A stretch of 64,000 bases of DNA, taken from sequence record MN850584.1. One strand, written 5' to 3'. This document shows, piece by piece, positions 1,913 through 13,809 of the stretch. This DNA is from Escherichia phage arall. The position numbers and the translations under genes are program-made. Numbering within the stretch: position 1 is the stretch's first letter; each line of letters starts with the position of its first letter. The notes below the pieces were generated by a model. That model did no database searches. It saw only the letters and a program-made list of their open reading frames with translations, and was not told where the DNA came from.

Positions 1913-2130
1913 TATTTTGAAAATTTTTATTTTTATAAAAAGGGGTGTGGTTTCATGTACGGAAATCCACCCTCTGAATAATATATCCAGAGTAAATATT
2001 ATTCTGTACTCTGTTAATAAAGTATTTAATTTGTTTGTTGGACTATGGTATCTGATCTTTAAAAGGTATACTATCTCTTAACTACTACTTATAACAGAAC
2101 AGTAAAATCATTTTTATAAAAAGGATAAAA

Positions 2131-2327
2131 TTATTTAAAGTTTTTACAGATTTTTGGATACAAATTTTGAAAATGAAAAGTTCAAGTTTGGTCAAAATTA
2201 TTTAAAGTTTTTGTACGTATTTCTATCCAGATTTTGAAAATGAAAACTTCAATTTTTTAAAAATTCCCCAGTTTATTTAAAGTTTTTTTGCCTTTTTCCG
2301 TAGAAAAATCAAAAATGAAAAGTTCAA
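2131..2327. repeat. Three direct repeats (~55 bp units: TTATTTAAAGTTTTT...TTTTGAAAATGAAAAGTTCAA)
   Basis: Units start at 2131, 2208 and 2273; each ends with TTGAA-N9-TTCAA inverted motif. Confidence 0.8.
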
Positions 2328-2352
2328 TTTCGTGTTTTTATGGGTGTGCGGA

Positions 2353-2409
2353 TGATAATCATTCTCACTAAGAGAATGAGAATCATTAGCAAATGAGAAT
2401 TTTTCTCAT
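2353..2409. promoter_or_regulatory. Cluster of GATAAT/GAGAAT palindromes (TGATAATCATTCTC; GAGAATGAGAATCATT; ATGAGAA-TTT-TTCTCAT)
   Basis: Perfect 7-3-7 inverted repeat at 2393-2409 plus overlapping dyads; same TGATAATCATTCT motif recurs at 12237, 12295, 13148. Confidence 0.6.
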
Positions 2410-2672
2410 TTAGAGAATAACGCGCAGGGGTGGTGTTTGTCTCGCGCTCCCGTGTCCCCTCGCCATACAATAAGAATAGCATAACCAACAACAAAAGCAA
2501 GCGATTATTTTTATCTTTACATTTCTTTACAAATTTATTTTAGACGAGCTACCGGCGATCAACCTTCCAACCAGTGCCCCCTGGTATGTTAGCCCCGCCT
2601 TTACGCCGTGGGGGTGGCGTTTCCTCTTCTGTATGTAAAACAGTATAAGCCCGATCCCTGGGCTTGTCAAGA

Positions 2673-2939
2673 TTATTTTTTGTTTTCTTGCCAGGATAGG
2701 ACACCTAACCAAAAATACATGTCGCCCCGCGCCCCTGGCGGGATCTTGCTTTCCCCGCCGCCACTGCAAGCCCATAGATAACCATTTACGAACGTATCAA
2801 AGTGATCTATCTCTTCCACCTTATGATTGCCCAGGTTGAGAACGGTTTCAACCTTTAAGCCCGTTGCGCTTGCTACCTGGTGCACCGTGCCGCCTTGCCA
2901 GCCCAATGAGTGCATGAGGTGTAAAGTAGTATTTGTCAT
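2673..2939 (-). CDS. Hypothetical protein in GC-rich island
   Basis: 88-aa ORF (MTNTTLHLMHSLGWQGGTVHQV...) with upstream minus-strand promoter-like TTGCTA-17-TATTAT and AAAGGG RBS; local GC clearly higher than flanks. Confidence 0.4.
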   Translation of the reverse strand: MTNTTLHLMHSLGWQGGTVHQVASATGLKVETVLNLGNHKVEEIDHFDTFVNGYLWACSGGGESKIPPGARGDMYFWLGVLSWQENKK

Positions 2940-2985
2940 GGTATCGCCCTTTCTTTGATGTGCGCCCTGGTTGGCGCGGTAGAAA

Positions 2986-3015
2986 GATAATAGCCCTTTC
3001 CTTTATAGATAGCAA
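2986..3015 (-). promoter_or_regulatory. Sigma70-like promoter (TTGCTA-17-TATTAT) for 2673..2939
   Basis: Consensus-like hexamers on minus strand, divergent from + strand promoter at 3056. Confidence 0.4.
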
Positions 3016-3055
3016 GCAAAAAAAAAGAAATGAAAAAAAGATTAAAAAAAAGGGG

Positions 3056-3084
3056 TTGACGTTCCTCACCTGGTAGCGTATTAT
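3056..3084 (+). promoter_or_regulatory. Sigma70-like promoter (TTGACG-17-TATTAT)
   Basis: Hexamers with 17-nt spacer; divergent partner of minus promoter. Confidence 0.45.
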
Positions 3085-3211
3085 TCATCTTGTCGAGGGG
3101 GGCGAGGCACAACGACAATAAACAAAAGGAGGGCGCAATGTAGGACGGGCAAAGGTGAGGATCTCCATAATCCACCGTCACAATAACATTACTTATAAAA
3201 GGTTGATAACG

Positions 3212-3307
3212 ATGATCAAGAAAGAAAACAGCTTGACGGTTGGAACGATTAACGCTATCATTCTAGCCGTTCCATTTTGGGTTGTAGTAGCGGTTATTAT
3301 CTTTTAA
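3212..3307 (+). CDS. Small hydrophobic peptide (31 aa, MIKKENSLTVGTINAIILAVPFWVVVAVIIF)
   Basis: ATG with AAAGG upstream, single predicted TM helix. Confidence 0.3.
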   Translation: MIKKENSLTVGTINAIILAVPFWVVVAVIIF

Positions 3308-3315
3308 AAATATTC

Positions 3316-3371
3316 TTGACAACGTTTTTTAATCTGATAAGATGTATCACATAGGGCGGCAATAGTGCCGC
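3316..3371 (+). promoter_or_regulatory. Early promoter cassette: TTGACA-16-TAAGAT + 5' hairpin GCGGCA-ATAG-TGCCGC
   Basis: Conserved module CAC-ATAGGGCGG-hairpin then AACAGAAGAGA leader and ATG at 3396. Confidence 0.7.
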
Positions 3372-3395
3372 TCATAACAGAAGAGAGAAATAATC

Positions 3396-3668
3396 ATGGC
3401 ATCATATAGCGCATCAATGATCGTAATGGGTATCACTGGTAAACCTATGCGCGGTGGCGGATCTTTCGCTAACATCAATATTGATGGGCGTTTATCCCTG
3501 GATGCAGCGATCACCGTGGCACGGGAAACATTTAAAAAAGAATGTAATTTCAATAAACAAGATTATCTCGGTTTCGCTATTGAAAAAACCGCGCGCTTTG
3601 TTGATTATAAAAGCCCGAAAATGGTTGATACTACACTAAAAGCGCAAGATGTAGCATTTTTGCTTTAA
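3396..3668 (+). CDS. Hypothetical early protein (90 aa)
   Basis: ORF directly downstream of promoter-hairpin cassette with A/G-rich RBS. Confidence 0.6.
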   Translation: MASYSASMIVMGITGKPMRGGGSFANINIDGRLSLDAAITVARETFKKECNFNKQDYLGFAIEKTARFVDYKSPKMVDTTLKAQDVAFLL

Positions 3669-3671
3669 GGC

Positions 3672-3732
3672 TTGACACTGAAAAATAATTTGGTAATATA
3701 TACTACATAGGGCGGGGAAATGGTTTCCCGCC
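3672..3732 (+). promoter_or_regulatory. Early promoter cassette: TTGACA-16-TAATAT + hairpin GCGGGGAAA-TGG-TTTCCCGC
   Basis: Same module as 3316. Confidence 0.7.
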
Positions 3733-3754
3733 AAATCAAAGAAAGGGTAACACA

Positions 3755-4117
3755 ATGAGCAAGCAAATCAATACTATCATGTTAAACCTGGTATCTTTCC
3801 GCGACGACGTGAAAAATCTTCCACGTGATGCAGTGGATGCACGTATCGAAAGCTATCGCTCACAGATCGCAACGCTACCGCTAAAACGTGATCAACATGC
3901 CGCTAATATGATGCTTAATGCTATGCTTAAAAAGATGATTCAATGTGATCTTACCCTGGCTTATGAATATGCTGGCGATCTCTTTGTAACATATAGCAAG
4001 CCCGTACCAGGTATGAGCACAACCGAAGAATTGCATGCCTTAAATCTGCGACAAGATGCATGGGATAACATGCGCCGTGTTATGGTATGGGTAGAAAGCG
4101 GTAAAATTTACGAATAA
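3755..4117 (+). CDS. Hypothetical early protein (120 aa)
   Basis: ORF after cassette, RBS AAGGG. Confidence 0.6.
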   Translation: MSKQINTIMLNLVSFRDDVKNLPRDAVDARIESYRSQIATLPLKRDQHAANMMLNAMLKKMIQCDLTLAYEYAGDLFVTYSKPVPGMSTTEELHALNLRQDAWDNMRRVMVWVESGKIYE

Positions 4118-4123
4118 AAACGG

Positions 4124-4176
4124 TTGACATTGCACTAAAACCTGATAAGCTATCTTAAAGCGGGAATAGTTCCCGC
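4124..4176 (+). promoter_or_regulatory. Early promoter cassette: TTGACA-16-TAAGCT + hairpin GCGGGAA-TAG-TTCCCGC
   Basis: Module variant with compensatory stem. Confidence 0.65.
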
Positions 4177-4195
4177 TTACATAGGATAAAACTTT

Positions 4196-4342
4196 ATGAA
4201 ACAATATGTAATGAGTATTCACACCAAAAACGGCGCTACTGTTACGACTCCGGCACGGTTTGCACTTGTAAACCGTTGCAAGAGACTAAAACGAGAGCTA
4301 AAAAACAACCGTGCAACGGGCTTTAAACGCTGGGGAGGATAA
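4196..4342 (+). CDS. Small basic protein (48 aa)
   Basis: ATG 20 nt after hairpin; stop precedes GGAGG RBS of next ORF. Confidence 0.45.
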   Translation: MKQYVMSIHTKNGATVTTPARFALVNRCKRLKRELKNNRATGFKRWGG

Positions 4343-4344
4343 TC

Positions 4345-4605
4345 TTGTTTTTTCTAAAAGTTTTTGATAATGTGATCGCTTTTGAACATGCTGCAACGTT
4401 CAACCTGGCGAGATACGCTATCAGGTTTAAAGATAATGTTTATCCCCGTGCTGGTGGCGGTTACACTATCTTTAATCATCGTAACGCTCAATTAACGGAT
4501 ATAACGAATCCAGATCCTGGAGTGTATCGCATAGGTTGGCTACCGTCAAAAGACGCGGCAAGCATGTTTAAGGTATGTAAACTACTAACAGAAGAGGCAA
4601 ATTAG
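4345..4605 (+). CDS. Hypothetical protein (86 aa), probable TTG start
   Basis: GGAGGA 6 nt upstream of TTG at 4345; no in-frame ATG near RBS. Confidence 0.5.
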   Translation: MFFLKVFDNVIAFEHAATFNLARYAIRFKDNVYPRAGGGYTIFNHRNAQLTDITNPDPGVYRIGWLPSKDAASMFKVCKLLTEEAN

Positions 4606-4606
4606 C

Positions 4607-5161
4607 ATGGGGCGTGAGTATGTGATCCAGTCCTGGGTAAAGCATGACGCTAATGATCCGCGCATAATACCAGATGACATGATCGATCACATGGTAGGGT
4701 ATAGCGGGGAGCAGATAGGAAATCGAGCGGCAAAGAGCAACGGCAACACAAAGGCGCGATCCGTTCGCCCTGGTTGGCTGGCAAATGGTAACGCTGACAT
4801 TACAAGCGCCGCAGATCCAAGCGATGACGCTAAAAATAATCCCTTATACAGCATTGATCCGGCTTTTAAGGTGTTAGAAGAATATCCCGCTAAATTAGCC
4901 GCACTAGATAAAGCATACGAAGAAAAACGGGTGGCATGGACTGTATACAACACCGCTAAAATGGTGCTAGATGCAAAATTGATTAAAGCCCAGGAGAAGA
5001 TCAATAAACTTGTTACCATAGCGCAAGAGGAAGACCAGGACGACCAGGAGGAAGAGGAAGAAATCATGCCTATCCTGGAAGAGGAAGAGATCCAGCCATA
5101 CATGCCGACGGAAGAGGAAAAAAGACAAGCCTTAAAAAATTACGAAAATTGTATTGTGTAA
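4607..5161 (+). CDS. Hypothetical protein with strongly acidic C-terminal tail (EDQDDQEEEEEIMPILEEEEIQ)
   Basis: Start overlaps previous stop (TAGCATG); 184 aa. Confidence 0.6.
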   Translation: MGREYVIQSWVKHDANDPRIIPDDMIDHMVGYSGEQIGNRAAKSNGNTKARSVRPGWLANGNADITSAADPSDDAKNNPLYSIDPAFKVLEEYPAKLAALDKAYEEKRVAWTVYNTAKMVLDAKLIKAQEKINKLVTIAQEEDQDDQEEEEEIMPILEEEEIQPYMPTEEEKRQALKNYENCIV

Positions 5162-5164
5162 GGC

Positions 5165-5220
5165 TTGACATATGCAAACAAGCCCCGTAATATGTACCAC
5201 ATAAAGCGGGGCAACGCCCC
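5165..5220 (+). promoter_or_regulatory. Early promoter cassette: TTGACA-17-TAATAT + hairpin GGGGC-AAC-GCCCC
   Basis: Module variant. Confidence 0.6.
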
Positions 5221-5242
5221 ATAAGGTGAAATAAAAAATCAC

Positions 5243-5270
5243 TTGACACCTGAAATCAGTAAGCTATAAT
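5243..5270 (+). promoter_or_regulatory. Sigma70 consensus promoter TTGACA-16-TATAAT (no hairpin)
   Basis: Near-perfect hexamers upstream of 5308. Confidence 0.7.
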
Positions 5271-5307
5271 GCTTATATAAATTAAAGCGTTACTAAGGAA
5301 TAAAATC

Positions 5308-5673
5308 ATGGCTAAAAATATCAATGTTTCTGCTTATGCTACCCTGGCTAACACTGCTAAAATTGAACTATCCAGCATTGAAGCGGTACATATTAGCGCC
5401 CGTCGCTGGTTTCAAAAGTCTTATGGTAATACTTATTTCTCTTTGATGGTTGACGTTGAGATCGGCGGTAAATTGGTCGAAGTGGTTAACGTTCCGTTTC
5501 AATATGGTTATGGTGATCATTTTGATACCGTCGCCCTGGAAGAGTTTAGCAAGGTTATCAACCTGGAAGGTAAAGACTTTTCAAATTATGCTTACCTTTC
5601 CCGTTTTTGCCGTGACAATGGGATCGCTGTATACAGTCATGCAAGCGATGTTAAACGTAAAAAAGATTTATAA
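5308..5673 (+). CDS. Hypothetical early protein (121 aa)
   Basis: RBS AAGGAATAAAATC-ATG; downstream of tandem promoters. Confidence 0.6.
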   Translation: MAKNINVSAYATLANTAKIELSSIEAVHISARRWFQKSYGNTYFSLMVDVEIGGKLVEVVNVPFQYGYGDHFDTVALEEFSKVINLEGKDFSNYAYLSRFCRDNGIAVYSHASDVKRKKDL

Positions 5674-5679
5674 AAAGCA

Positions 5680-5737
5680 TTGACAGCACGAATAAAAAGC
5701 ATATAATACTTATATCGAGAGCGGGAATAGTTCCCGC
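5680..5737 (+). promoter_or_regulatory. Early promoter cassette: TTGACA-16-TATAAT + hairpin GCGGGAA-TAG-TTCCCGC
   Basis: Module. Confidence 0.7.
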
Positions 5738-5761
5738 CTCACTGAAAAAGAGATTAACATC

Positions 5762-6001
5762 ATGGCTAAATCTAAAATGTACAACGGTCACAAAAATAAA
5801 ACTCATTGGAATGTAAGCCTTTGGATCAACAACGATGAAGGTTTTTATAATCTTGCGCGTGAATTTATCGCAGCTAACACCAATAAGAATGACGCAGCGC
5901 GTGATATGATGTTATTTCTTGAAAGTATGGATCAAGATAAAACGCCAGACGGATTCAAGTTCAGTAAAACCGCGATCCGTGCCGCTATGGTTGGAATGTA
6001 A
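5762..6001 (+). CDS. Hypothetical early protein (79 aa)
   Basis: ORF after cassette. Confidence 0.6.
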   Translation: MAKSKMYNGHKNKTHWNVSLWINNDEGFYNLAREFIAANTNKNDAARDMMLFLESMDQDKTPDGFKFSKTAIRAAMVGM

Positions 6002-6096
6002 AGGAGACATAAAAATGAAACATCGTTCGACCTATCTCACAAAACGTTTTAGCTTAGATCATAAATTGGGCTACTACGGAAGAAATAGAAAATAAT

Positions 6097-6155
6097 TTGA
6101 CAACGTTTTAAATTAGTGTAAGATATATCACATAAGGCGGGAAATGGTTTCCCGC
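6097..6155 (+). promoter_or_regulatory. Early promoter cassette: TTGACA-16-TAAGAT + hairpin GCGGGAAA-TGG-TTTCCCGC
   Basis: Module. Confidence 0.7.
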
Positions 6156-6178
6156 CAAATCAAAGAAAGGTTATAATT

Positions 6179-6406
6179 ATGGCTATCGTTATTGTTCGCG
6201 TATCCGGTACGGTTGGAAGCTCCCAGGTAGTAGCAGTTATCACAGAGAAGAAAGGGGATGATCTTCACTCTTCCTTGAATAGCTGGGCGGTCGCTAATTT
6301 TGGTCAGTGGTCGAGCGTCGAGTATATCGAATCCTACCAGGTGCCAACGATTAGCCTGACCGATCTCAACGTTGATCGTCTGTTATGCCTGGATGAATTA
6401 ATCTGA
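6179..6406 (+). CDS. Hypothetical early protein (75 aa)
   Basis: ORF after cassette. Confidence 0.6.
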   Translation: MAIVIVRVSGTVGSSQVVAVITEKKGDDLHSSLNSWAVANFGQWSSVEYIESYQVPTISLTDLNVDRLLCLDELI

Positions 6407-6415
6407 AAAAGATTG

Positions 6416-6471
6416 TTGACACGGGAAAGAAAAAGAGTAAACTGTATTACATAGGGCGGCAATAGTGCCGC
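6416..6471 (+). promoter_or_regulatory. Early promoter cassette: TTGACA-16-TAAACT + hairpin GCGGCA-ATAG-TGCCGC
   Basis: Near-identical to cassette at 3316. Confidence 0.7.
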
Positions 6472-6496
6472 TCATAACAGAAGAGAGATTATCACG

Positions 6497-6712
6497 ATGG
6501 CTAATATCCGCACACTGTTAAAAAATGCAAAGCAAGTTTTATTTTCAGATGACGAATATTTTAATAAAGATATCACAGGCGTGAAAAATCTTAAAGATGT
6601 GAAAGATGTGATAGGTATTCGCGGATCTTTACGTAAAGGTGACACATACGGTAACAAGGTGCAATATAAGTTAGATCAGTTTTATGATTTTACTTTGACA
6701 ATTATTTCATAA
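6497..6712 (+). CDS. Hypothetical early protein (71 aa)
   Basis: ORF after cassette. Confidence 0.6.
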   Translation: MANIRTLLKNAKQVLFSDDEYFNKDITGVKNLKDVKDVIGIRGSLRKGDTYGNKVQYKLDQFYDFTLTIIS

Positions 6713-6718
6713 AACCGC

Positions 6719-6779
6719 TTGCAATCTTAATAAAATAAAGTAAACTAAATTCATCAAGGCGGTGGAATAGCCCACCGCC
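6719..6779 (+). promoter_or_regulatory. Early promoter cassette: TTGCAA-16-TAAACT + hairpin GGCGGTGG-AATAGC-CCACCGCC
   Basis: Module with different stem sequence (covariation). Confidence 0.6.
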
Positions 6780-6803
6780 TAACAAAGAGAAGAGGAAAAT
6801 ATC

Positions 6804-6974
6804 ATGATCACTTTCGCCACCCGTGAAGCCGCTCGCAACGTTGCACGTAAAGTTAACGCCGCCAACCTGGGCGCTACGCTTAAAGCCCCGGTGAAAGATG
6901 AATCAGGTAAATGGATCTTCCCTGGTCTGCGTCACGCTGATAAGCTGGGAACGTTAACGCTAAAAAATAAATAA
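6804..6974 (+). CDS. Small protein (56 aa, MITFATREAARNVARKVNAAN...)
   Basis: ATG 25 nt after hairpin with AGAGGAAAAT RBS; below ORF-track size cut-off. Confidence 0.5.
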   Translation: MITFATREAARNVARKVNAANLGATLKAPVKDESGKWIFPGLRHADKLGTLTLKNK

Positions 6975-6981
6975 GATCCGC

Positions 6982-7039
6982 TTGACAGTAGCATCATTTA
7001 TAAGTAAAGTAACAACAACGGCGGGAAATGGTTTCCCGC
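6982..7039 (+). promoter_or_regulatory. Early promoter cassette: TTGACA-17-TAAAGT + hairpin GCGGGAAA-TGG-TTTCCCGC
   Basis: Module. Confidence 0.7.
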
Positions 7040-7060
7040 CATCAATAAAGAGATAAAATC

Positions 7061-7420
7061 ATGAAATCAGTAAAAGCAATTAAAACCTACATTGTGTCGG
7101 CTATTTCTTTTGAAGGTACTACAACAGAAAAAGAAAAGATCACCGAACTGATGCGCCGTTTTAACTCTGAATACTGGTATCCCGATAATCAAAAACGTTA
7201 CAATTATAACGTGATCAAGGCGATAGCCTCATGGTTACAAGGTTTACCGTCAGACATTAACATCGCCTTTGATTATAACGAGATTGATCATTTATTAATT
7301 GAATGGAAGTACATAAAAGAAACAAGCAAAGAAACAACCGTTACCCGTGAGCGGGAAAATTATTGGTTATATATTGCAAGCATGATCGTAATCCTGGCAA
7401 AACAGCATAACGTGGCGTAA
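7061..7420 (+). CDS. Hypothetical early protein (119 aa)
   Basis: ORF after cassette. Confidence 0.6.
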   Translation: MKSVKAIKTYIVSAISFEGTTTEKEKITELMRRFNSEYWYPDNQKRYNYNVIKAIASWLQGLPSDINIAFDYNEIDHLLIEWKYIKETSKETTVTRERENYWLYIASMIVILAKQHNVA

Positions 7421-7435
7421 TTAAGAGGAAGAAAC

Positions 7436-7573
7436 ATGAACGCATCACAGCAGATCGAAAAATTCAACCGCAGCAAGGCGCGTAAAGATTGGAACGAAGA
7501 GATCACCAAAAAAGGCGACAAGCGGAACAAAACAAAGAGAGATCGCAGCACAAAAAGATACTGGAACGAATAA
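7436..7573 (+). CDS. Small lysine/arginine-rich protein (45 aa)
   Basis: AAGAGGAAGAAAC-ATG; ends just before terminator. Confidence 0.45.
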   Translation: MNASQQIEKFNRSKARKDWNEEITKKGDKRNKTKRDRSTKRYWNE

Positions 7574-7580
7574 CAAAAAA

Positions 7581-7603
7581 GGGCGCAATAAGCGCCCTTT
7601 TAG
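7581..7603 (+). terminator. Rho-independent terminator (GGGCGC-AATAA-GCGCCC + TTTT)
   Basis: GC stem + T-run. Confidence 0.7.
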
Positions 7604-7692
7604 CTTATATAGAGGCTTGTTACCCATAGGCAATGGTAACGCCAGGATAAGCCTATAAATCAACGTTAAACGGCTTTACAGGAGCTTTAAAA

Positions 7693-7875
7693 ATGAAATT
7701 AGACGAAATAAGCAAGGCACTAGCCCAGGGGCAAAGGTTATGCGCCCGATATCGTGATCAATATGGCTTCATAACTAGCGGCGTGATCCTGGGGATTGAA
7801 GGCAATAAGATTTTTATTGACACGTTGAAAAACGTTGTATATAGTGACAATATAATCTCAATAAAACATATATGA
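7693..7875 (+). CDS. Hypothetical protein (60 aa)
   Basis: ORF with RBS AGGAG. Confidence 0.5.
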   Translation: MKLDEISKALAQGQRLCARYRDQYGFITSGVILGIEGNKIFIDTLKNVVYSDNIISIKHI

Positions 7876-7883
7876 GGCAAGAA

Positions 7884-8285
7884 ATGAAAAAATTATTGAT
7901 CGCTGGTTTAATCTCTTTTGGCATGGTTGGAACATCTAGCGCGGCGATATCCTCCACAGTAGCAGAATTAAGCGCCGTTGATGCAATGGAAAACGTCATG
8001 CTTATTAATAATGCGATCCCCGATGAAATCATGGAGGATTCACACATGATCGCTTATGGTGCTGTTACACAACTAACGGCAAAAATAGATAAATCTATTG
8101 TTAACGGCTTAAATGAAGATGTGCCATGTGAAATTATTACCAGTGTGCTGACTACTCAAAATTTTACGCCGTGGTTAAAAAGTATTCAAAAAGTACACAG
8201 TACAGCCGCAGATCGTAGCAATGAAAAACTAGTGTCAGCACTTGCAACGTATACCCTAGCAAAATGCACCGAGATAAAAGATTGA
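7884..8285 (+). CDS. Secreted/periplasmic hypothetical protein (signal peptide MKKLLIAGLISFGMVGTSSA)
   Basis: Start moved to MKKLL (RBS GAGGCAAGAA); classic n-h-c signal peptide with AxA. Confidence 0.55.
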   Translation: MKKLLIAGLISFGMVGTSSAAISSTVAELSAVDAMENVMLINNAIPDEIMEDSHMIAYGAVTQLTAKIDKSIVNGLNEDVPCEIITSVLTTQNFTPWLKSIQKVHSTAADRSNEKLVSALATYTLAKCTEIKD

Positions 8286-8311
8286 CAACATAGAAAGCAC
8301 GTTATAAGATA
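8283..8311 (+). promoter_or_regulatory. Sigma70-like promoter TTGACA-17-TAAGAT
   Basis: Hexamers upstream of 8333. Confidence 0.5.
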
Positions 8312-8332
8312 CACACAACAAAGGAGAACTAC

Positions 8333-8635
8333 ATGAACGGCATAGCTAAAACGTTTTTTCTTTTTTCTGGTGTAAATGATCCATCAATAAAAGTCGATAG
8401 TGTAAAAGAAAACAATACTATCACCGCTAAATTGTTTCAAGATGAAACAAATAACGTGCTAATCATTAATCTTAAAGAAATAACGAAAGGTTATTATACT
8501 ATTGCTTACCATGCGATCTATCATGCGGGTACTAGTGAGGAAGTGCAAACAAGCAACAACGAAAGCGCGGCGCTACCTGGTGATCTGGTGCTGGGCGTTA
8601 TCAGTTTAATTGTCAATGATTTTTTTAAGGAGTAA
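8333..8635 (+). CDS. Hypothetical protein (100 aa), possible N-terminal signal sequence
   Basis: RBS AAGGAGAACTAC-ATG. Confidence 0.55.
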   Translation: MNGIAKTFFLFSGVNDPSIKVDSVKENNTITAKLFQDETNNVLIINLKEITKGYYTIAYHAIYHAGTSEEVQTSNNESAALPGDLVLGVISLIVNDFFKE

Positions 8636-8639
8636 AACC

Positions 8640-8735
8640 ATGCCCTATTTACATTTATTTTTCGGTATCTTATTGACAGGATCTTTTTTCTTCTGTATGC
8701 TTGTTTCTATTGTAAACCACGTTTTAAGACATTAA
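8640..8735 (+). CDS. Small membrane peptide (31 aa)
   Basis: RBS AAGGAG 8 nt upstream; one hydrophobic helix. Confidence 0.35.
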   Translation: MPYLHLFFGILLTGSFFFCMLVSIVNHVLRH

Positions 8736-8744
8736 GGAAACAGC

Positions 8745-8864
8745 ATGAAAATTATTCCCGTACAGTATAGCGTAATAAATCCAGCATATGAGGAAGGAAG
8801 GAAAACAAGCATGGCTTTATGTTGTATTGCTACTATAGCCATGTTGTTATATATTGTGTTTTAA
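8745..8864 (+). CDS. Small membrane peptide (39 aa)
   Basis: RBS AAGGAAACAGC-ATG; C-terminal hydrophobic segment. Confidence 0.35.
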   Translation: MKIIPVQYSVINPAYEEGRKTSMALCCIATIAMLLYIVF

Positions 8865-8893
8865 TAGGTTTTATAGTTGTACGCTTTAAAGGC

Positions 8894-8921
8894 TTGACAA
8901 TTTTTTGTTATGCTTTAAAAT
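8894..8921 (+). promoter_or_regulatory. Sigma70-like promoter TTGACA-16-TAAAAT
   Basis: Hexamers upstream of 8965. Confidence 0.5.
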
Positions 8922-8964
8922 ATATCTTGAAAACGGCAAAGGCCGCAAACAAAAGGGTAAAATT

Positions 8965-9288
8965 ATGAAATCTGTGATCGGTGTTTATTTGGATAACTCT
9001 GATTTTTTCTATCATCGCGCTCGTTTCCTTGATGCGATTGAAATGATAGAATCAGGCTTTAAAGAGTATCGCCTTGCACATGATGACCTAGAAGCATTAC
9101 AGGGCAATAGTGTTTTTACATTGCAAGCGAAAGCACTATGCAAAAGCCGGATCGACATTGCGAGCAAAAAGATAGAACGCGGCATGTCCTGGTTACGCAC
9201 CGCAGAAATCAACATGGGGCAATGGTACGGCGAAAACTTAGAAAATAAACGCACTTTTGTAAATGTAGAAAATCTTAAAGATTATTGA
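8965..9288 (+). CDS. Hypothetical protein (107 aa)
   Basis: Start set at MKSVIG with RBS AAAGGGTAAAATT. Confidence 0.55.
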   Translation: MKSVIGVYLDNSDFFYHRARFLDAIEMIESGFKEYRLAHDDLEALQGNSVFTLQAKALCKSRIDIASKKIERGMSWLRTAEINMGQWYGENLENKRTFVNVENLKDY

Positions 9289-9350
9289 TTGACAGCACAC
9301 CTAACAGATAGTATATTGTATCTCATAGAGCGGGGAAATGGTTTCCCCGC
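9289..9350 (+). promoter_or_regulatory. Early promoter cassette: TTGACA-17-TATATT + hairpin GCGGGGAAA-TGG-TTTCCCCGC
   Basis: Module. Confidence 0.7.
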
Positions 9351-9370
9351 CTTAACAGAAGAGATAAGCT

Positions 9371-9655
9371 ATGAAGATCACAAAAGCACTTTCCAACTAT
9401 GCAGCACGTCGCGGATTATGTTTAACCGTTGAAAATTTAGGGAAAGAAGATTTTTTGTGCTTTTGGGAGCTTGAGAATGATAATGAGTGGATCTTCTCTT
9501 ATTCTATCTGCGAAGATCAAAACGGTTGTTTATTAACCTGGCGCGGTAATATCTATCTACCGGAAGAAATCAAAGAAGAATTACCAGGCACGATCATGAC
9601 TGAGAAACAGCTTAAGGAAGTGATCAATTTTGTAGGGCAAAACATTAAAAAATAA
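9371..9655 (+). CDS. Hypothetical early protein (94 aa)
   Basis: ORF after cassette. Confidence 0.6.
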   Translation: MKITKALSNYAARRGLCLTVENLGKEDFLCFWELENDNEWIFSYSICEDQNGCLLTWRGNIYLPEEIKEELPGTIMTEKQLKEVINFVGQNIKK

Positions 9656-9656
9656 T

Positions 9657-9716
9657 TTGACACTAGGCAAACAACGTAGTAAAGTTTATCACATAGGGCG
9701 GGAAATGGTTTCCCGC
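9657..9716 (+). promoter_or_regulatory. Early promoter cassette: TTGACA-17-TAAAGT + hairpin GCGGGAAA-TGG-TTTCCCGC
   Basis: Module. Confidence 0.7.
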
Positions 9717-9739
9717 TCACAACAGAAGAGAAACAAATC

Positions 9740-9910
9740 ATGATCCCAACTATGTTTTATGTATCGCGCAAAGGTCACAATATTTTTTGGTCTGAAGATT
9801 TAAATGAAGCCATGACGTTTGCCCGTGATCGTGTTGCTATCGGTGGCGTTAACATTACTGTAACCGATGAAAACGGCATTGAATACTATAACGGCGACGA
9901 TGAAGAGTAA
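9740..9910 (+). CDS. Small protein (56 aa)
   Basis: ATG 24 nt after hairpin, RBS AGAGAAACAAATC. Confidence 0.5.
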   Translation: MIPTMFYVSRKGHNIFWSEDLNEAMTFARDRVAIGGVNITVTDENGIEYYNGDDEE

Positions 9911-9918
9911 TTAATGAG

Positions 9919-9939
9919 GCGGGGGGAGTATTCCCCGCC
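9919..9939 (+). promoter_or_regulatory. Conserved 5'-leader hairpin (GGCGGGG-GGAGTAT-TCCCCGCC) without clear -35
   Basis: Same flanking context (…GTCAATAAAGAGG…ATG) as other cassettes. Confidence 0.45.
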
Positions 9940-9958
9940 GTCAATAAAGAGGTAAATC

Positions 9959-10228
9959 ATGAAAATATCATTGGACGTTGCAATCAAGGCCATCGAATCC
10001 GGTTACACCCTGGTAAAAGATGATAAGGCTAAAATAGTGCATCATGTTAACAAGGAAACAGGCGAAAGCATGATCACATATAAAGCCGCCTACTTTCTCC
10101 AATCAGTAGCAGATCCGCGCGTACAACGCCAGGTTACAGCGGCTATTGCTAAAAAATTATGTGCTTTACAGGGCACAAGTTTTAACGAGATCGCCCCGTG
10201 TTTTGACTGGTCGAGCTTGAAAAAATAG
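9959..10228 (+). CDS. Hypothetical early protein (89 aa)
   Basis: ORF after hairpin. Confidence 0.6.
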   Translation: MKISLDVAIKAIESGYTLVKDDKAKIVHHVNKETGESMITYKAAYFLQSVADPRVQRQVTAAIAKKLCALQGTSFNEIAPCFDWSSLKK

Positions 10229-10229
10229 T

Positions 10230-10290
10230 TTGATAATATGCTGTTATCTGGTAAAGTGTACGACATAGGGCGAGGCAATAAGGCAACGCC
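10230..10290 (+). promoter_or_regulatory. Early promoter cassette: TTGATA-16-TAAAGT + hairpin GGGCG-N14-CGCCC
   Basis: Module variant. Confidence 0.5.
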
Positions 10291-10310
10291 CATTAATGAG
10301 GGGTAGAATC

Positions 10311-10415
10311 ATGTTAGAGAAAATTTTCACGGTTGTAATAGTGGGCCTGGCGTTATCGGTTGGATTGGTTGCAACTATGGCTAACATGATCCTATCTTCC
10401 CACGGTATCGGCTAA
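10311..10415 (+). CDS. Small membrane peptide (34 aa)
   Basis: RBS GAGGGGTAGAATC-ATG; hydrophobic. Confidence 0.35.
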   Translation: MLEKIFTVVIVGLALSVGLVATMANMILSSHGIG

Positions 10416-10429
10416 AAGAGAAACACAAC

Positions 10430-10594
10430 ATGAAAACAGAAATCATTATTGAAATCATCAACGGTTATAAAGAAGCCTTTATTTTTGCCGAACCAGCGAC
10501 GGATAACAATGGGGAATATATTGAGAATCTAGACGATTATGATTTTTCTCCTAGCGCCCTGAAATATACACTACTAACACCGCCAACCGTTTAA
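10430..10594 (+). CDS. Small acidic protein (54 aa)
   Basis: RBS AAGAGAAACACAAC-ATG. Confidence 0.4.
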   Translation: MKTEIIIEIINGYKEAFIFAEPATDNNGEYIENLDDYDFSPSALKYTLLTPPTV

Positions 10595-10672
10595 CTGATG
10601 CAGCTAAATTAATGCCATCGGTGCATGCTTACATTGGTGAAGATAATTTGATTTATATTGAATAAAAAGTAT

Positions 10673-10729
10673 TGACACCGATCCCCAATATGTTATTATT
10701 TACCACGTAAGCGGGAAATGGTTTCCCGC
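10673..10729 (+). promoter_or_regulatory. Early promoter cassette: TTGACA-16-TATTAT + hairpin GCGGGAAA-TGG-TTTCCCGC
   Basis: Module. Confidence 0.7.
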
Positions 10730-10753
10730 TAGGTAATCAAAAAGGTAAATACT

Positions 10754-11143
10754 ATGCGCAACCTGGTTTCTGTTTCTAACGTTGAAAAATTCCAATCTTT
10801 ACATGGTATCGTTAACAACGTGGCGCCTTTTTTAGTAAACGGCTTGATTGCAAAGATGAAAAATAAACATCATGCGGCATGGTCTGCTTACTGCTTTGAT
10901 AATGATGAAAAAGCGGCTGAAATGATGTTAAATATGCTGTTAGACAGTGTAGAATCATCTTTACCGGAAAACATCGCAGAAGAGATCACCTATCGTTATA
11001 ATATGGCGATCACTTACCAGGAGGTTGCGCAATTCAATATGATGGACGATGACGAACAACAGGATCAGGAAATGTTTTGGGAGTATGCAGATCGTAAATC
11101 GGCTTTTGATGAAAAGTTAGCGATGTATTATAACGAATATTAA
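10754..11143 (+). CDS. Hypothetical early protein (129 aa), acidic
   Basis: ORF after cassette. Confidence 0.6.
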   Translation: MRNLVSVSNVEKFQSLHGIVNNVAPFLVNGLIAKMKNKHHAAWSAYCFDNDEKAAEMMLNMLLDSVESSLPENIAEEITYRYNMAITYQEVAQFNMMDDDEQQDQEMFWEYADRKSAFDEKLAMYYNEY

Positions 11144-11159
11144 TACACGGTAAAAGAAA

Positions 11160-11184
11160 GGGGCGCACTAAGCGCCCTTTTTTG
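11160..11184 (+). terminator. Rho-independent terminator (GGGCGC-ACTAA-GCGCCC + TTTTTT)
   Basis: GC stem + T-run. Confidence 0.8.
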
Positions 11185-11528
11185 TATTCTTTTTTCACAA
11201 TGGAAGCGACACGTAAAGAATAGGCGTAAAGGTGGCGTAAAACCATCTAAAACCGACTGTAACCGCTTAAACAAGGTAGGAATGATTAATCACCTTACCA
11301 GGATGAAAAAGCTGTTATAAAGCTATCTAGGGCGTTTAAAGCACATAGGAAATAATTTGCTTTTTATCTTGCCTTTTATCCTGCTTTTGATTATTATTAT
11401 GGAACGGGCGGCACCTGGGGACAGGGGAAGATAATCACCGGAAGATCCCGCTATATATTAATAGCTAATACCTATTAAACAACAAAACATCAAAGGTATA
11501 AACTATCAAATCTTTACAATTCTACCTA

Positions 11529-11557
11529 TTGACACCGGATCACGCTTACACTATTAT
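11529..11557 (+). promoter_or_regulatory. Sigma70 promoter TTGACA-17-TATTAT
   Basis: Consensus hexamers; the ORF-track TTG 'start' at 11529 is the -35 element. Confidence 0.65.
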
Positions 11558-11603
11558 TTATCACGTAGGGCAAATCATTTTAAACGGTAAACGAGGAATC
11601 ACC

Positions 11604-11987
11604 ATGAGCAATATCATCAACCTGGCAGCGACTGTAAACGGTAAAGATTTTAACGGCGCTGTAGATCGTGATCCTATGTGGTGCTTATCAGTGTTTAAAG
11701 GCGATCTGGTTGAAGTTAGAACAACCGAAGGTTATAGCGACGATTATAAATGCGAGATCCATTTACATAACTGGTACACGGGTAAAACTTATGCGCTGAA
11801 TCATGCGTTTATCGGGAAAATTGAATATCGCGAGATGATCGACGAAGAAACCGGGCAAGATTTTAGCGAAAACGTTTATATTCGTTCAGAAACATTAGCC
11901 GAACGTTTGATCGAGAAAATGAAAGCAAAAAATAAAATTAATTTAACTCATTGGATTGATATAACAAACGATCCAGCTTATCAGTAA
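11604..11987 (+). CDS. Hypothetical protein (127 aa)
   Basis: ATG with RBS ACGAGGAATCACC; in frame with ORF-track entry. Confidence 0.6.
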   Translation: MSNIINLAATVNGKDFNGAVDRDPMWCLSVFKGDLVEVRTTEGYSDDYKCEIHLHNWYTGKTYALNHAFIGKIEYREMIDEETGQDFSENVYIRSETLAERLIEKMKAKNKINLTHWIDITNDPAYQ

Positions 11988-12003
11988 ATAACATTCCATA
12001 CAA

Positions 12004-12029
12004 GGGCGCACAAAGCGCCCTTTCTTTTT
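12004..12029 (+). terminator. Rho-independent terminator (GGGCGC-ACAAA-GCGCCC + TTTCTTTTT)
   Basis: GC stem + T-run. Confidence 0.8.
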
Positions 12030-12117
12030 ACCTCAATAAAGATGATAGCTTTTACCTATCAAAAACGTTCACCGAAAAAAGTGAATAGATCGCGGTATCG
12101 AGCTAATCAAGGAGCAG

Positions 12118-12258
12118 ATGAATAACCATACCATGAAGATCATAAGGCGCTTACAACGTGTTTTAGACCGCTTATTTTTAATTTCTTCATGCAACTATCT
12201 GGCAAAAACAGCCTTTTTCTTGTCTTTCCTCTTAAATGATAATCATTCTTATTTATAG
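12118..12258 (+). CDS. Possible small ORF (46 aa)
   Basis: Good RBS AAGGAGCAG-ATG but lies in otherwise non-coding AT-rich region. Confidence 0.3.
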   Translation: MNNHTMKIIRRLQRVLDRLFLISSCNYLAKTAFFLSFLLNDNHSYL

Positions 12259-12698
12259 CTGATTATTTATGCAATAAACTGCATAATTCAATAATGATAA
12301 TCATTCTTAACTTATGACCATCTAACCTATAAAATAATAAGTTATCTAACTAAATTAAAACTAATTATCTTACTTTTATTTATAACTTACTGTTACTATC
12401 TCATTGATAACCTTATATTAAACAACAATAACTAATATAAATCATTACTAAGCTAACTATAATCTATCTAACCCTTAAAACTACAACTATAATCTATCGA
12501 ATTGTTGCACAAAGTAACTATTAAATTGTTAGTAACATTGCTAAATAATTAATATCCTATCTATTTATGATCTAATCTTTACCTTCCTATTTATTACCTA
12601 ACTAATCATTTCATACAGTAATCATTGCATACAGTAACTATGACAAGAAATATAATTCGCAAGCGTATCATTAGCAGCCTATGCCGGACACATAGGCG

Positions 12699-12845: not shown

Positions 12846-13147
12846 TAATGTTTAGAACATTGGCTATAATATAAGCTGCATATAATAAGCTATACAATAA
12901 TAAACATGGTGAATAATGACCCTGATGATCATAATGCGCCACCCTCCAGGGGGCGCTATGTGTACACAAAAAATCTTTCTTGTCAAGAAAATATTAACAC
13001 TATTGCGCAAAATTATTTACAACTGAATAGATGATTTTTCATACTATTGCCCCTATAACATACCTCATTTGTTGAGCCTACTTTCTTAAAAGCGCAATAA
13101 ATCAGAATTATCTTGATTTTTAGGGCGTTTTATAGTATAGAAAATAT

Positions 13148-13166
13148 GCAAATGATAATCATTATC
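13148..13166. promoter_or_regulatory. Fur-box-like 19-mer GCAAATGATAATCATTATC
   Basis: 17/19 match to recalled E. coli Fur consensus GATAATGATAATCATTATC. Confidence 0.4.
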
Positions 13167-13332
13167 AGCTATCTTCCACGGGTGGCACTATTTCACGCCA
13201 GATCATTTCATTTGGCAAGGTGTATATAGATGTTTAGACTTGCCAAGCCATTGATTTACTTAGAATTTATCTGTTTTGTTGTGAGTAGTACCTTTCTTGC
13301 TTAGAAAATAATCAAAAGTCTTATAAGTCATT

Positions 13333-13365
13333 GAATGATAATGCAAATGATAATTATTCTCATTG
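13333..13365. promoter_or_regulatory. GATAAT-repeat element (GAATGATAATGCAAATGATAATTATTCTCATTG)
   Basis: Two GATAAT hexamers plus ATTCTCATT half-site shared with 2353-2409 cluster. Confidence 0.4.
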
Positions 13366-13809
13366 ATATTTGAGGGGGACGGTCGGCAGAAATCGGGGGG
13401 CGCTGAAAATCGCGTTAAGCACCTCTCGCAAGCGAGCAGTGTTTTGCGGCAAGTTATTGATATTATTGACTTTACGCTTATGAAAAGGGGGTGTGTCGAA
13501 ATAAATCGGGTATACCGGAAAATTTTTGTGGCATAGATATTTATTTGTCTATATTATGTACAAAGGGGTGTATTAAAAATAATAGGTATATATAGAATAA
13601 TTGATAGGGAAATCCTATACTAAATCCTTCATTAATGATGTTCCTATGTTGCTGTTCTTGTAACAGATGAAAAGACGCTATATGATGTGTGGCATGAGAC
13701 GTAAATTTATAAGATGCAAATAATGCTTGCATTGAATAGAAATGTCTATACACTGTGTTTCATAAGATATGCAATATCGCGCATAACAAACTACTAATGA
13801 GAGGTGTAA

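What the first reader, a model, noticed from the sequence alone, without database searches (positions are those of the whole stretch)
3316..10729. Fourteen early-gene cassettes share a covarying hairpin at the predicted transcript 5' end
At least 14 small ORFs are each preceded by TTGACA, a 16-17 nt spacer, TAnnnT, a 7-nt discriminator ending CAC, and then ATAGGGCGG running into an inverted repeat (most often GCGGGAAA-TGG-TTTCCCGC), an A-rich leader and the ATG. The stem sequence differs between copies (GCGGCA/TGCCGC, GCGGTGG/CCACCGC, GGGGC/GCCCC, GCGGGAA/TTCCCGC) while complementarity is kept. Compensatory change argues for selection on structure. There is no T-run, so these are not terminators. 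Candidate roles are a 5'-terminal stem-loop that stabilises early mRNAs, or a site for a phage factor that shuts off early genes.
Basis: partly seen in the sequence, partly recalled or inferred. Interest (0 to 1): 0.7.

Follow-up and report, generated by a model that had tools for sequence, protein, structure and literature searches.

The report
Early-gene promoter cassettes with leader hairpin
A phi92-like E. coli phage drives about a dozen tiny early genes from repeated promoter units, each carrying a GC-rich hairpin at the very start of its transcript; this is a variant of the promoter/stem-loop cassettes known in T4-type phages, and genome annotations currently mislabel the hairpins as terminators.

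Summary
Window 3316-10756 holds 13 near-consensus sigma70 promoters. Each is followed, 7-12 nt after the -10 box, by a GC-rich hairpin of -8 to -19 kcal/mol, then a 17-24 nt A/purine-rich leader and an ATG. One further copy has no promoter. Only 7 copies carry ATAGGGCGG within one mismatch. None has a T-run, whereas the phage's true terminators (7577, 11155, 12002) do. The window is a phi92-like Justusliebigvirus. The same cassette recurs in phi92, in Phapecoctavirus, and more sparsely in rV5-like phages. Orthologous genes carry different hairpins in different phages, and these always still pair, but most of this variation is swapping among about 10 ready-made hairpin versions rather than stepwise compensation. 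Indels between close relatives begin and end at cassettes with 7-36 nt overlaps. The closest known thing is the PeSL cassette of T4-type phages. RB49 PeSL hairpins lie inside or upstream of the promoter; here the hairpin lies downstream of the predicted start, so the cassette's own mRNA carries it. The best reading is a transcribed leader hairpin that protects or insulates mRNA ends, inside a mobile promoter-leader module. Function is untested. There is no Rfam match and I found no prior description.

The parts
3316..3398 (+). Cassette 1: TTGACA-16-TAAGAT, GTATCAC, ATAG, hairpin 3354-3373 (GGGCGGCA-ATAG-TGCCGCTC), 22-nt leader, ATG at 3396
3672..3757 (+). Cassette 2: TTGACA-16-TAATAT, hairpin 3711-3732 (GGCGGGGAAATGGTTTCCCGCC), ATG at 3755
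4124..4198 (+). Cassette 3: TTGACA-16-TAAGCT, hairpin 4158-4178 (AAGCGGGAA-TAG-TTCCCGCTT) starting about at the predicted +1, ATG at 4196
5165..5242 (+). Cassette 4, an orphan: TTGACA-17-TAATAT, hairpin 5207-5221 (GGGGC-AAC-GCCCC). It has no ORF and is followed directly by the hairpin-less consensus promoter at 5243.
5680..5764 (+). Cassette 5: TTGACA-16-TATAAT, hairpin 5721-5737 (GCGGGAA-TAG-TTCCCGC), ATG at 5762 (DUF7249 protein)
6097..6181 (+). Cassette 6: TTGACA-16-TAAGAT, hairpin 6136-6156 (GGCGGGAAA-TGG-TTTCCCGCC), ATG at 6179
6416..6499 (+). Cassette 7: TTGACA-16-TAAACT, hairpin 6454-6473 (identical to cassette 1), ATG at 6497
6719..6806 (+). Cassette 8: TTGCAA-16-TAAACT, hairpin 6757-6780 (AGGCGGTGG-AATAGC-CCACCGCCT), ATG at 6804
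6982..7063 (+). Cassette 9: TTGACA-17-TAAAGT, hairpin 7020-7040 (GGCGGGAAA-TGG-TTTCCCGCC), ATG at 7061
9289..9373 (+). Cassette 10: TTGACA-17-TATATT, hairpin 9330-9350 (GCGGGGAAA-TGG-TTTCCCCGC), ATG at 9371
9657..9742 (+). Cassette 11: TTGACA-17-TAAAGT, hairpin 9696-9718 (GGGCGGGAAA-TGG-TTTCCCGCTC), ATG at 9740
9911..9961 (+). Promoter-less copy: stop codon TAA (9908-9910), 7 nt, hairpin 9918-9939 (GGCGGGGGGAGTATTCCCCGCC), 19-nt leader, ATG at 9959. The orthologous gene in phage A7_1 has a full promoter plus hairpin.
10230..10313 (+). Cassette 12: TTGATA-16-TAAAGT, irregular hairpin 10268-10291 (GGGCG...CGCCC with an inner GC/GC helix), ATG at 10311
10672..10756 (+). Cassette 13: TTGACA-16-TATTAT, hairpin 10710-10730 (AGCGGGAAA-TGG-TTTCCCGCT), ATG at 10754
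11529..11577 (+). Degraded relative: same promoter and CAC/GTAGGGC start, but no hairpin
7577..7601 (.). True bidirectional intrinsic terminator (AAAAGGGCGC...GCGCCCTTTT), shown for contrast. Others lie at 11155-11183 and 12002-12022.

Best explanation
These are repeated promoter-leader cassettes of the early region of a phi92-like phage (Justusliebigvirus). Each unit has four parts: a near-consensus sigma70 promoter; a conserved start (pyrimidine at -1, purine at +1, usually R-U-A-G); a GC-rich stem-loop occupying about +4 to +25 of the transcript; and a 17-24 nt unstructured A/purine-rich leader with a weak Shine-Dalgarno and the ATG of a small gene without known relatives.

Shown: the hairpin is conserved as a structure across phage genera, it is not an intrinsic terminator, and it lies downstream of the predicted start, so the cassette's own mRNA contains it. 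This differs from RB49 PeSLs.

Inferred mechanism: the hairpin acts as an RNA end-barrier or insulator. It would sit 5'-proximal on transcripts from its own promoter. It would also sit 3'-proximal, or between cistrons, on read-through transcripts from the upstream gene. In either position it would slow exonucleolytic and 5'-end-dependent decay and keep the downstream ribosome-binding site in a constant, open context.

Second, separate role (supported by comparative data): the ~80-bp repeated cassettes serve as homology patches, so early genes are inserted, deleted and swapped between related phages, as PeSLs do in T4-type phages.
For: Anatomy. The first paired base is 7-12 nt after the -10 box. 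The distance from hairpin end to ATG is 17-24 nt, median 22.

Predicted start: the 7th and 8th nt after the -10 box are mainly C then A/G.

Enrichment: 10-17 of 13-23 promoters per locus carry a hairpin, against 5-10% of random windows.

The covariance model hits only the early array, and + strand hits score about 10 bits above - strand hits.

Conservation: phi92, ASO2A, tuntematon, Schickermooser and A7_1 all carry the cassette, with a few copies in MiataMamis and rV5.

Structure is kept while sequence changes. 85.7% of cells pair, against 72% in shuffles and 36-64% when partners are slid. Of 26 ortholog groups with a hairpin, 16 carry more than one hairpin sequence. A7_1 has a clean G-C to C-G flip (GCCGCA/TGCGGC). 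phi92 has an A-U to G-U change.

Not terminators: there is no T-run, whereas true terminators in the same region have A and T tracts.

Indel junctions lie at cassettes with 7-36 nt overlaps.

RB49 PeSL hairpins sit in the spacer, over the -10 box, upstream of -35, or straddling the start.
Against: No transcript ends were measured; the start site is predicted only.

The usual predicted overhang is 3-4 nt, which is enough for RppH and RNase E (PMC8833179). In mitigation, nucleotide 2 is U, which RppH disfavours.

A test for G-U versus A-C asymmetry, which would show that the sense RNA is the folded form, was inconclusive: 5 versus 5 internal cases. The sense-versus-antisense energy difference is small and the data are not independent.

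Much of the stem variation is exchange of whole hairpin versions, which preserves pairing without needing selection at each step.

Six promoters in the same array have no strong hairpin (8894 only a weak one).

Breakpoints falling in intergenic cassettes would be expected anyway, because gene-disrupting indels are purged.
Confidence: 0.45

Rival explanations
1. The hairpin is an attenuator or terminator for transcription coming from the upstream gene. This is the function proposed for PeSL stem-loops and the one implied by the GenBank 'rho-independent terminator' features. It would limit the build-up of read-through along the array of very strong promoters.
For: The ASO2A record annotates exactly these hairpins as terminators predicted by WebGeSTer/TransTermHP. 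Arbiol et al. report that a PeSL stem-loop reduced lacZ expression about as much as rrnB T1 (PMC2839356). Promoter-less intercistronic copies exist. Stem energies of -12 to -16 kcal/mol resemble those of the true terminators.
Against: There is no U-tract: 0-2 T in the 9 nt after each hairpin. The same phage uses canonical A-tract/T-tract terminators where arrays end. A terminator at +25 would also abort transcripts from its own promoter. From established knowledge, intrinsic termination by E. coli RNA polymerase requires the U-tract.
Confidence: 0.15
2. The feature works at the DNA level. The palindrome, as a cruciform or a single-strand hairpin, or simply the repeated homology block, exists for recombination and cassette mobility. 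Under this reading the RNA hairpin is a by-product with no function in expression.
For: Indel junctions sit at -35 boxes, hairpin edges and start codons, with 7-36 nt overlaps. Hairpin versions are swapped between orthologous positions. [quoted passage not shown] The strand-asymmetry test was inconclusive.
Against: Homology alone does not require self-complementarity, yet about 10 different versions are all near-perfect hairpins. Position is fixed relative to both the predicted start and the ATG. Hairpin-less promoters in the same array also sit at indel boundaries (5308/5314, 11527-11569).
Confidence: 0.13
3. The hairpin is a recognition site for a trans-acting protein that binds it, together with the conserved RUAG 5' tail or the AAU(R)G loop. 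The protein could be a phage early or middle product, or a host RNA-binding protein. It would co-ordinately shut off, process or protect early mRNAs.
For: The initial sequence RTAGGGC is conserved even in copies that have lost the hairpin (11529; A7_1 13769 and 14071). Loops are often AAT(A/G)G. Geometry is constant. The array encodes many small proteins without known relatives and of unknown function.
Against: Stems and loops vary: loops include TGG, TAG, CAC, TAC, ATAG, AATAGC and ACAAG. The conserved tail could equally reflect promoter-escape needs or shared ancestry. No RNA-binding domain was found in the ten early ORFs scanned.
Confidence: 0.12
4. The hairpin acts co-transcriptionally on RNA polymerase. 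Forming in the exit channel just after escape from a very strong promoter, the nascent hairpin would prevent backtracking, speed sigma release, or set a promoter-proximal pause.
For: The distance from the promoter is fixed. The promoters are near-consensus, a class for which escape tends to be limiting (general knowledge). An A-N3-T motif in many loops resembles the key positions of a -10 element (sequence reading).
Against: The A-N3-T pattern follows trivially from an A-T closing pair and a 3-nt loop. Promoter-less copies exist. Consensus promoters at 5243 and 7817 do without a hairpin.
Confidence: 0.08

Closest known systems
PeSL (promoter-early stem-loop) cassettes of T4-type phages RB49/phi1, PST/T4 and nt-1/KVP40 (Arbiol et al. 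2010, PMC2839356; Comeau et al. 2014, PMC4122927)
   Same: Both are repeated ~80-100 bp intergenic units. Each combines a near-consensus sigma70 early promoter, a stable GC-rich stem-loop, and the Shine-Dalgarno and ATG of a small gene without known relatives. Both are concentrated in a variable early region and are found at insertion, deletion and replacement boundaries between close relatives.
   Different: In RB49 the stem-loop lies in the -35/-10 spacer, over the -10 box, upstream of -35, or straddling the start (checked directly). In PST and nt-1 it lies just upstream of the promoter. The cassette's own transcript therefore lacks it. Here it starts 7-12 nt after the -10 box and is fully transcribed from its own promoter. 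The phage lineage also differs (Stephanstirmvirinae, not Straboviridae), and the hairpin sequences are unrelated.
5'-terminal stabilising stem-loops of E. coli mRNAs (ompA, papA; Emory, Bouvet and Belasco 1992, cited in PMC3997798)
   Same: Both are sequence-independent hairpins near the 5' end of an mRNA, followed by an open leader and a ribosome-binding site. Such hairpins block RppH and 5'-end-dependent RNase E.
   Different: Protection requires fewer than about 2 unpaired 5' nt (PMC8833179). Most copies here are predicted to leave 3-4. Copies also occur without a promoter. No half-life data exist.
Rho-independent (intrinsic) terminators
   Same: Both are GC-rich hairpins of similar energy in intergenic DNA. 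GenBank records of related phages label these hairpins as terminators.
   Different: There is no U-tract. The hairpins sit between a promoter and the ribosome-binding site it serves. The genome's real terminators look different.
Intercistronic or 3' stabiliser hairpins, such as REP elements and the hairpins left by RNase III in T7 early mRNA (from general knowledge, not tested here)
   Same: Both are hairpins between cistrons of a polycistronic phage or bacterial transcript that could stop 3'-5' exonucleases.
   Different: The stems of 6-10 bp are too short for RNase III. No processing sites have been mapped.

Membership tests
PeSL cassettes (T4-type phages) | Near-consensus sigma70 early promoter within a repeated intergenic unit | tested here: met
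   19 + strand promoters with 10 or more of 12 consensus matches lie in 2500-12500, against 2 on the - strand.
PeSL cassettes (T4-type phages) | Stable stem-loop in the same unit, with the Shine-Dalgarno and ATG of a small gene without known relatives at the 3' end | tested here: met
   Pfam finds only DUF7249 among ten early ORFs.
PeSL cassettes (T4-type phages) | Stem-loop placed upstream of, within or over the promoter, ending before the transcription start | tested here: not met
   Here the first paired base is 7-12 nt after the -10 box. The RB49 PeSLs I scanned have the hairpin in the spacer, over the -10 box, upstream of -35, or starting 0-5 nt after the -10 box (PMC2839356 section 14).
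PeSL cassettes (T4-type phages) | Located at indel and replacement boundaries between closely related phages | tested here: met
   Comparing the window with ESCO8, alia, muut and phi92, about 20 of 26 breakpoint ends fall in cassettes, several with 7-36 nt overlaps. Confound: the intergenic space is almost entirely cassette.
PeSL cassettes (T4-type phages) | Stem-loop terminates transcription; recombination between cassettes yields mini-circles | not testable with these tools
   Needs reporter assays and inverse PCR.
5'-terminal mRNA-stabilising stem-loop | Hairpin flush with the 5' end (fewer than 2 unpaired nt) | tested here: inconclusive
   The start is predicted, not measured. The predicted overhang is 0-2 nt in a few copies (4124, 6982) and 3-4 nt (RUAG) in most. 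A possible closing pair between +1/+2 and the 3' flank was not significant: 18 of 22 pairable against 16 expected.
5'-terminal mRNA-stabilising stem-loop | Structure matters rather than sequence | tested here: met
   There are about 10 hairpin versions, and pairing is kept.
5'-terminal mRNA-stabilising stem-loop | Lengthens mRNA half-life | not testable with these tools
   No expression data are available.
Intrinsic terminator | U-rich tract directly 3' of the hairpin | tested here: not met
   The next 9 nt hold 0-2 T, and there are no + strand terminator calls at the hairpins.
Any Rfam family | Score at or above the gathering threshold | tested here: not met
   There are no hits at gathering thresholds over 64 kb. 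In E-value mode there are only chance-level hits far below threshold.

The most novel reading that the evidence does not exclude
The hairpin plus RUAG tail is a structural 'self' tag on phage early mRNAs. It would let them escape a phage-induced acceleration of host mRNA decay (rV5-like phages are reported to encode an Srd homologue, PMC3606486). Alternatively, it would let one phage factor recognise and switch off the whole early class at once. That would be a transcript-class marker defined by shape and position rather than sequence.
Probability: 0.1. Interest if true: 0.8.

Novelty: new variant of a known kind. Interest (0 to 1): 0.5.

Why it matters
If the hairpin is functional RNA, it is a compact, portable 5' leader used about a dozen times per genome by a large group of therapeutic-candidate coliphages; 240 GenBank records match this region. 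It would explain how very strong early promoters give stable, uniformly translated messages for small early genes of unknown function.

It also corrects a systematic annotation error, in which 'terminators' are placed between a promoter and its gene.

It extends the PeSL idea, mobile regulatory cassettes that shuffle genes, beyond T4-type phages. In this version the stem-loop has moved into the transcript. That makes it possible to test separately the expression role and the recombination role of the hairpin.

Tried and rejected
- Rfam: gathering mode over the whole window and E-value mode over 3000-12500 found nothing meaningful.
- Pfam on ten early ORFs found only DUF7249.
- Forcing a structural alignment by padding with N: MAFFT shifted the rows, so I abandoned it. 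I used loop-centred natural sequences instead.
- G-U versus A-C asymmetry, to prove that the sense RNA is the folded strand: 5 versus 5 internal cases and 10 versus 6 at the helix end, so inconclusive.
- Pairing of +1/+2 with the 3' flank, which would make the hairpin flush with the 5' end: 18 of 22 pairable against about 16 expected, so not supported.
- Terminators for the opposite strand: only 2 of 13 hairpins are called on the - strand, so rejected.
- RNase III sites: rejected, because the stems of 6-10 bp are far shorter than the ~20 bp the enzyme needs (general knowledge).
- N4-type DNA hairpin promoters for a virion RNA polymerase: considered and rejected, because each hairpin sits just downstream of a near-consensus sigma70 promoter (not tested further).
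- Dimeric repressor operator: rejected, because the half-site sequences differ between copies.
- Literature searches for a prior description in phi92, phAPEC8, rV5 or PVP-SE1 papers found only generic promoter and terminator lists.
- The other strong match to ATAGGGCGG, at 60027-60035 on the - strand, is an isolated hairpin at a gene end, not a cassette.

Full report
**What the window is.** Region 3300-11200 is 95-97% identical to Escherichia phages vB_EcoM_ESCO8, alia, inny, VEcB and PaulScherrer, and 240 phage records match it. These phages belong to Justusliebigvirus, the phi92-like genus of Stephanstirmvirinae. The right terminal repeat of phi92 maps to window 13075-13417. The early array therefore lies just inside one physical genome end and is transcribed toward it.

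**Check of the observation.** I scanned for TTGACA-like and TAnnnT hexamers and folded what follows. A separate hairpin scan gives the same picture.
- There are 13 + strand promoters, at 3316, 3672, 4124, 5165, 5680, 6097, 6416, 6719, 6982, 9289, 9657, 10230 and 10672.
- Each is followed by a GC-rich hairpin of -8.0 to -18.7 kcal/mol.
- A 14th hairpin (9918-9939) has no promoter.
- The tool's own promoter scan lists 19 + strand sites with 10 or more of 12 consensus matches in 2500-12500, against 2 on the - strand.
- The hairpin ends 17-24 nt (median 22) before the ATG.

- ATAGGGCGG is exact in 4 copies and within one mismatch in 7.
- 'CAC' ends the discriminator in 5 copies.
- The cassette at 5165 has no ORF.
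- Promoters at 5243, 7817, 8282, 8673 and 11529 have no hairpin, and 8894 has only a weak one (-6.0 kcal/mol).

**Is it more than chance?**
- Under a stricter promoter filter, 10 of 18 strong promoters in the window carry a hairpin of -8 kcal/mol or better. The figure for random 34-nt windows of the same region is 7.7%, and that background includes the hairpins themselves.
- A covariance model built from 20 loop-centred copies finds hits only between 3350 and 10734 in the whole 64 kb. The + strand hits score about 10 bits above the - strand hits at the same sites.
- No Rfam family matches.

**They are not terminators.** The 9 nt after each hairpin hold 0-2 T. The terminator scan calls none of them on the + strand. 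The phage's real terminators, at 7577-7601, 11155-11183 and 12002-12022, have the classic A-tract, GC stem and T-tract form. Even so, the GenBank record of the Phapecoctavirus ASO2A annotates exactly these hairpins as 'rho-independent terminator predicted by WebGeSTer', each about 10 nt after an annotated promoter. The phi92 record annotates neither feature.

**Position relative to the transcript.** Across 138 distinct promoter-downstream segments from seven loci, the 7th nt after the -10 box is C in 82 and the 8th is a purine in 106. That is the usual pyrimidine(-1)/purine(+1) signature of a start at the 8th position. A and G alternate there (ATAGGG and GTAGGG). The first paired base lies 7-12 nt after the -10 box, most often 10-11. 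The whole hairpin is therefore predicted to lie in the transcript, usually behind a 3-4 nt tail (R-U-A-G).

**Conservation elsewhere.** The same unit occurs in the following loci.

| Phage (locus) |
|---|
| phi92 (L006) |
| Phapecoctavirus ASO2A (L001), tuntematon (L002), Schickermooser (L003) |
| A7_1 (L007) |

Per locus, 10-17 of 13-23 promoters carry the hairpin. In MiataMamis and rV5 only a few promoters of the homologous array carry one.

I also scanned IMG/VR with a pattern that does not include the hairpin. Of 19 hits in phi92/rV5-sized contigs, 17 have the hairpin. Of 42 hits in other contigs, 16 have a hairpin in the same place. These include a family of 46-48 kb contigs carrying ATAGAGCGGCAATGGTGCTGC. 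I did not follow this further.

**Covariation.**
- On the model-fitted alignment of 40 hits (30 distinct rows), 85.7% of cells pair. This compares with 72% in shuffles and 36-64% when partners are slid. Seven of 10 pairs change on both sides.
- That alignment is fitted to the structure, and part of the signal is a register effect between stems of different length.
- The comparison by orthology is more telling. Among 26 groups of orthologous downstream genes that carry a hairpin, 16 have more than one hairpin sequence, and all of these still pair.
- For example, the MASYSASM gene has GGGCGGCA/TGCCGCTC in the window and phi92, GGGCGGCGGA/TCCAGCCGCTC in ASO2A, and GGGCGGGAAG/TTTCCCGCTC in tuntematon.
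- The variants come from a repertoire of about 10 recurring versions, so most change is exchange of whole hairpins, not stepwise compensation.
- Single-step cases do exist: a G-C to C-G flip in A7_1 (GCCGCA/TGCGGC) and an A-U to G-U change in phi92.
- Cassettes that lost the hairpin keep the RTAGGGC start (11529; A7_1 13769 and 14071).

**RNA or DNA?** Tests for strand asymmetry were inconclusive. Internal G-T and A-C appositions number 5 each. Sense folds are on average 1.1 kcal/mol more stable than antisense folds (43 versus 21 cases, p = 6e-4), but the cases are not independent. The argument for RNA therefore rests on position: always downstream of the predicted start and at a fixed distance from the ATG.

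**Cassette shuffling.** I compared the window with ESCO8, alia, muut and phi92 by BLAST. Insertions, deletions and gene replacements begin and end at cassettes, and several junctions overlap by 7-36 nt. Junction sites include:
- the -35 boxes at 10220-10233, at 11527-11533 and at 3063/4116;
- the hairpin edges at 5716, 6459, 10290 and 10731;
- the start codon motif ATGGCTA at 5308-5314.

At 9657, the window and phi92 share the promoter up to the hairpin and then carry different hairpins and different genes. This is the pattern described for PeSLs. The caveat is that almost all intergenic space here is cassette, so viable indels would map there anyway.

[quoted passage not shown] In PST and nt-1 they lie just upstream of the promoter (PMC4122927). 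I checked RB49 directly.
- Hairpins sit in the spacer (for example TTGACAggggatcggtgatccccTATACT).
- Hairpins sit over the -10 box (gggagtagTAAAATactccc).
- Hairpins sit upstream of -35.
- Hairpins start 0-5 nt after the -10 box, so that the start falls inside the 5' arm.

In all these cases the cassette's own transcript lacks a complete hairpin. Here it has one. That is the defining difference, and it is why I file this as a variant rather than a member.

**Mechanism.**
- A pure 5'-end block is not assured. RppH and RNase E need 2 or more unpaired nt and prefer 3 or more, and RppH prefers a purine at position 2 (PMC8833179). The predicted tail is 3-4 nt with U at position 2.
- Promoter-less copies sit between a stop codon and the next ribosome-binding site in several phages. 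The hairpin therefore also works, or at least persists, inside polycistronic RNA.
- Because no terminator separates most genes, each gene's transcript would run into the next cassette's hairpin.
- The reading that fits all of this is an end-barrier or insulating hairpin that flanks each short cistron on both sides.
- I hold this at 0.45. The rivals are an attenuator role (0.15), a DNA-level recombination role (0.13), a protein-binding site (0.12) and an effect on RNA polymerase (0.08).

**Prior description.** I found none for phi92-like or rV5-like phages in the searchable literature.

Noticed in passing
window 13075-13417: This stretch matches the right direct terminal repeat of phi92 at 98%. 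The window therefore crosses the physical genome end, and the early array is transcribed toward it.
   Followed up: partly
window 9918-9939; L002 11431, 12793, 13075; L007 3820; L005 8721, 10210: Promoter-less copies of the hairpin plus A-rich leader lie between a stop codon and the next Shine-Dalgarno. They are conserved in several phages, and at one orthologous site the hairpin sequence differs between phages.
   Followed up: partly
L016, L045, L064, L067 (46-48 kb IMG/VR contigs); L014, L052 (94-103 kb); L034, L035, L044: Unrelated-sized viral contigs carry a consensus promoter, CAC/ATAG, and a hairpin at the same position (for example ATAGAGCGGCAATGGTGCTGCGGAGG). The design may be wider than phi92-like phages.
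   Followed up: no
window 5308-5314 and other early starts (5762, 6179, 6497): Several early genes begin with ATGGCTA (Met-Ala). One indel junction with ESCO8 and alia overlaps exactly this heptamer.
   Followed up: no
window - strand promoters at 27230, 35150, 46805, 49003, 52540: Elsewhere in the window, - strand genes have a promoter followed by a hairpin (at 27230, 35150 and 52540 with a T-rich tail) and then the Shine-Dalgarno. This design differs from the early array.
   Followed up: no
window ~1920-3300: A 1.3 kb mostly non-coding, G-run-rich stretch lies upstream of the early array, with divergent promoters (2670 on the - strand; 3056 and 3233 on the + strand). It is annotated as repeat_region in alia, muut and tuntematon. 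A 36-nt overlap signature at 2353-2388 appears in every comparison.
   Followed up: no
window 7600-8900: A block after the terminator at 7577 holds three hairpin-less promoters (7817, 8282, 8673). They drive genes whose products look like signal-peptide or membrane proteins. It is a distinct sub-module within the array.
   Followed up: no
window 5165-5308: Two promoters sit in tandem 78 nt apart. The first has a hairpin but no ORF. In phi92 its hairpin is weakened (-5.1 kcal/mol), so this may be a decaying cassette.
   Followed up: partly
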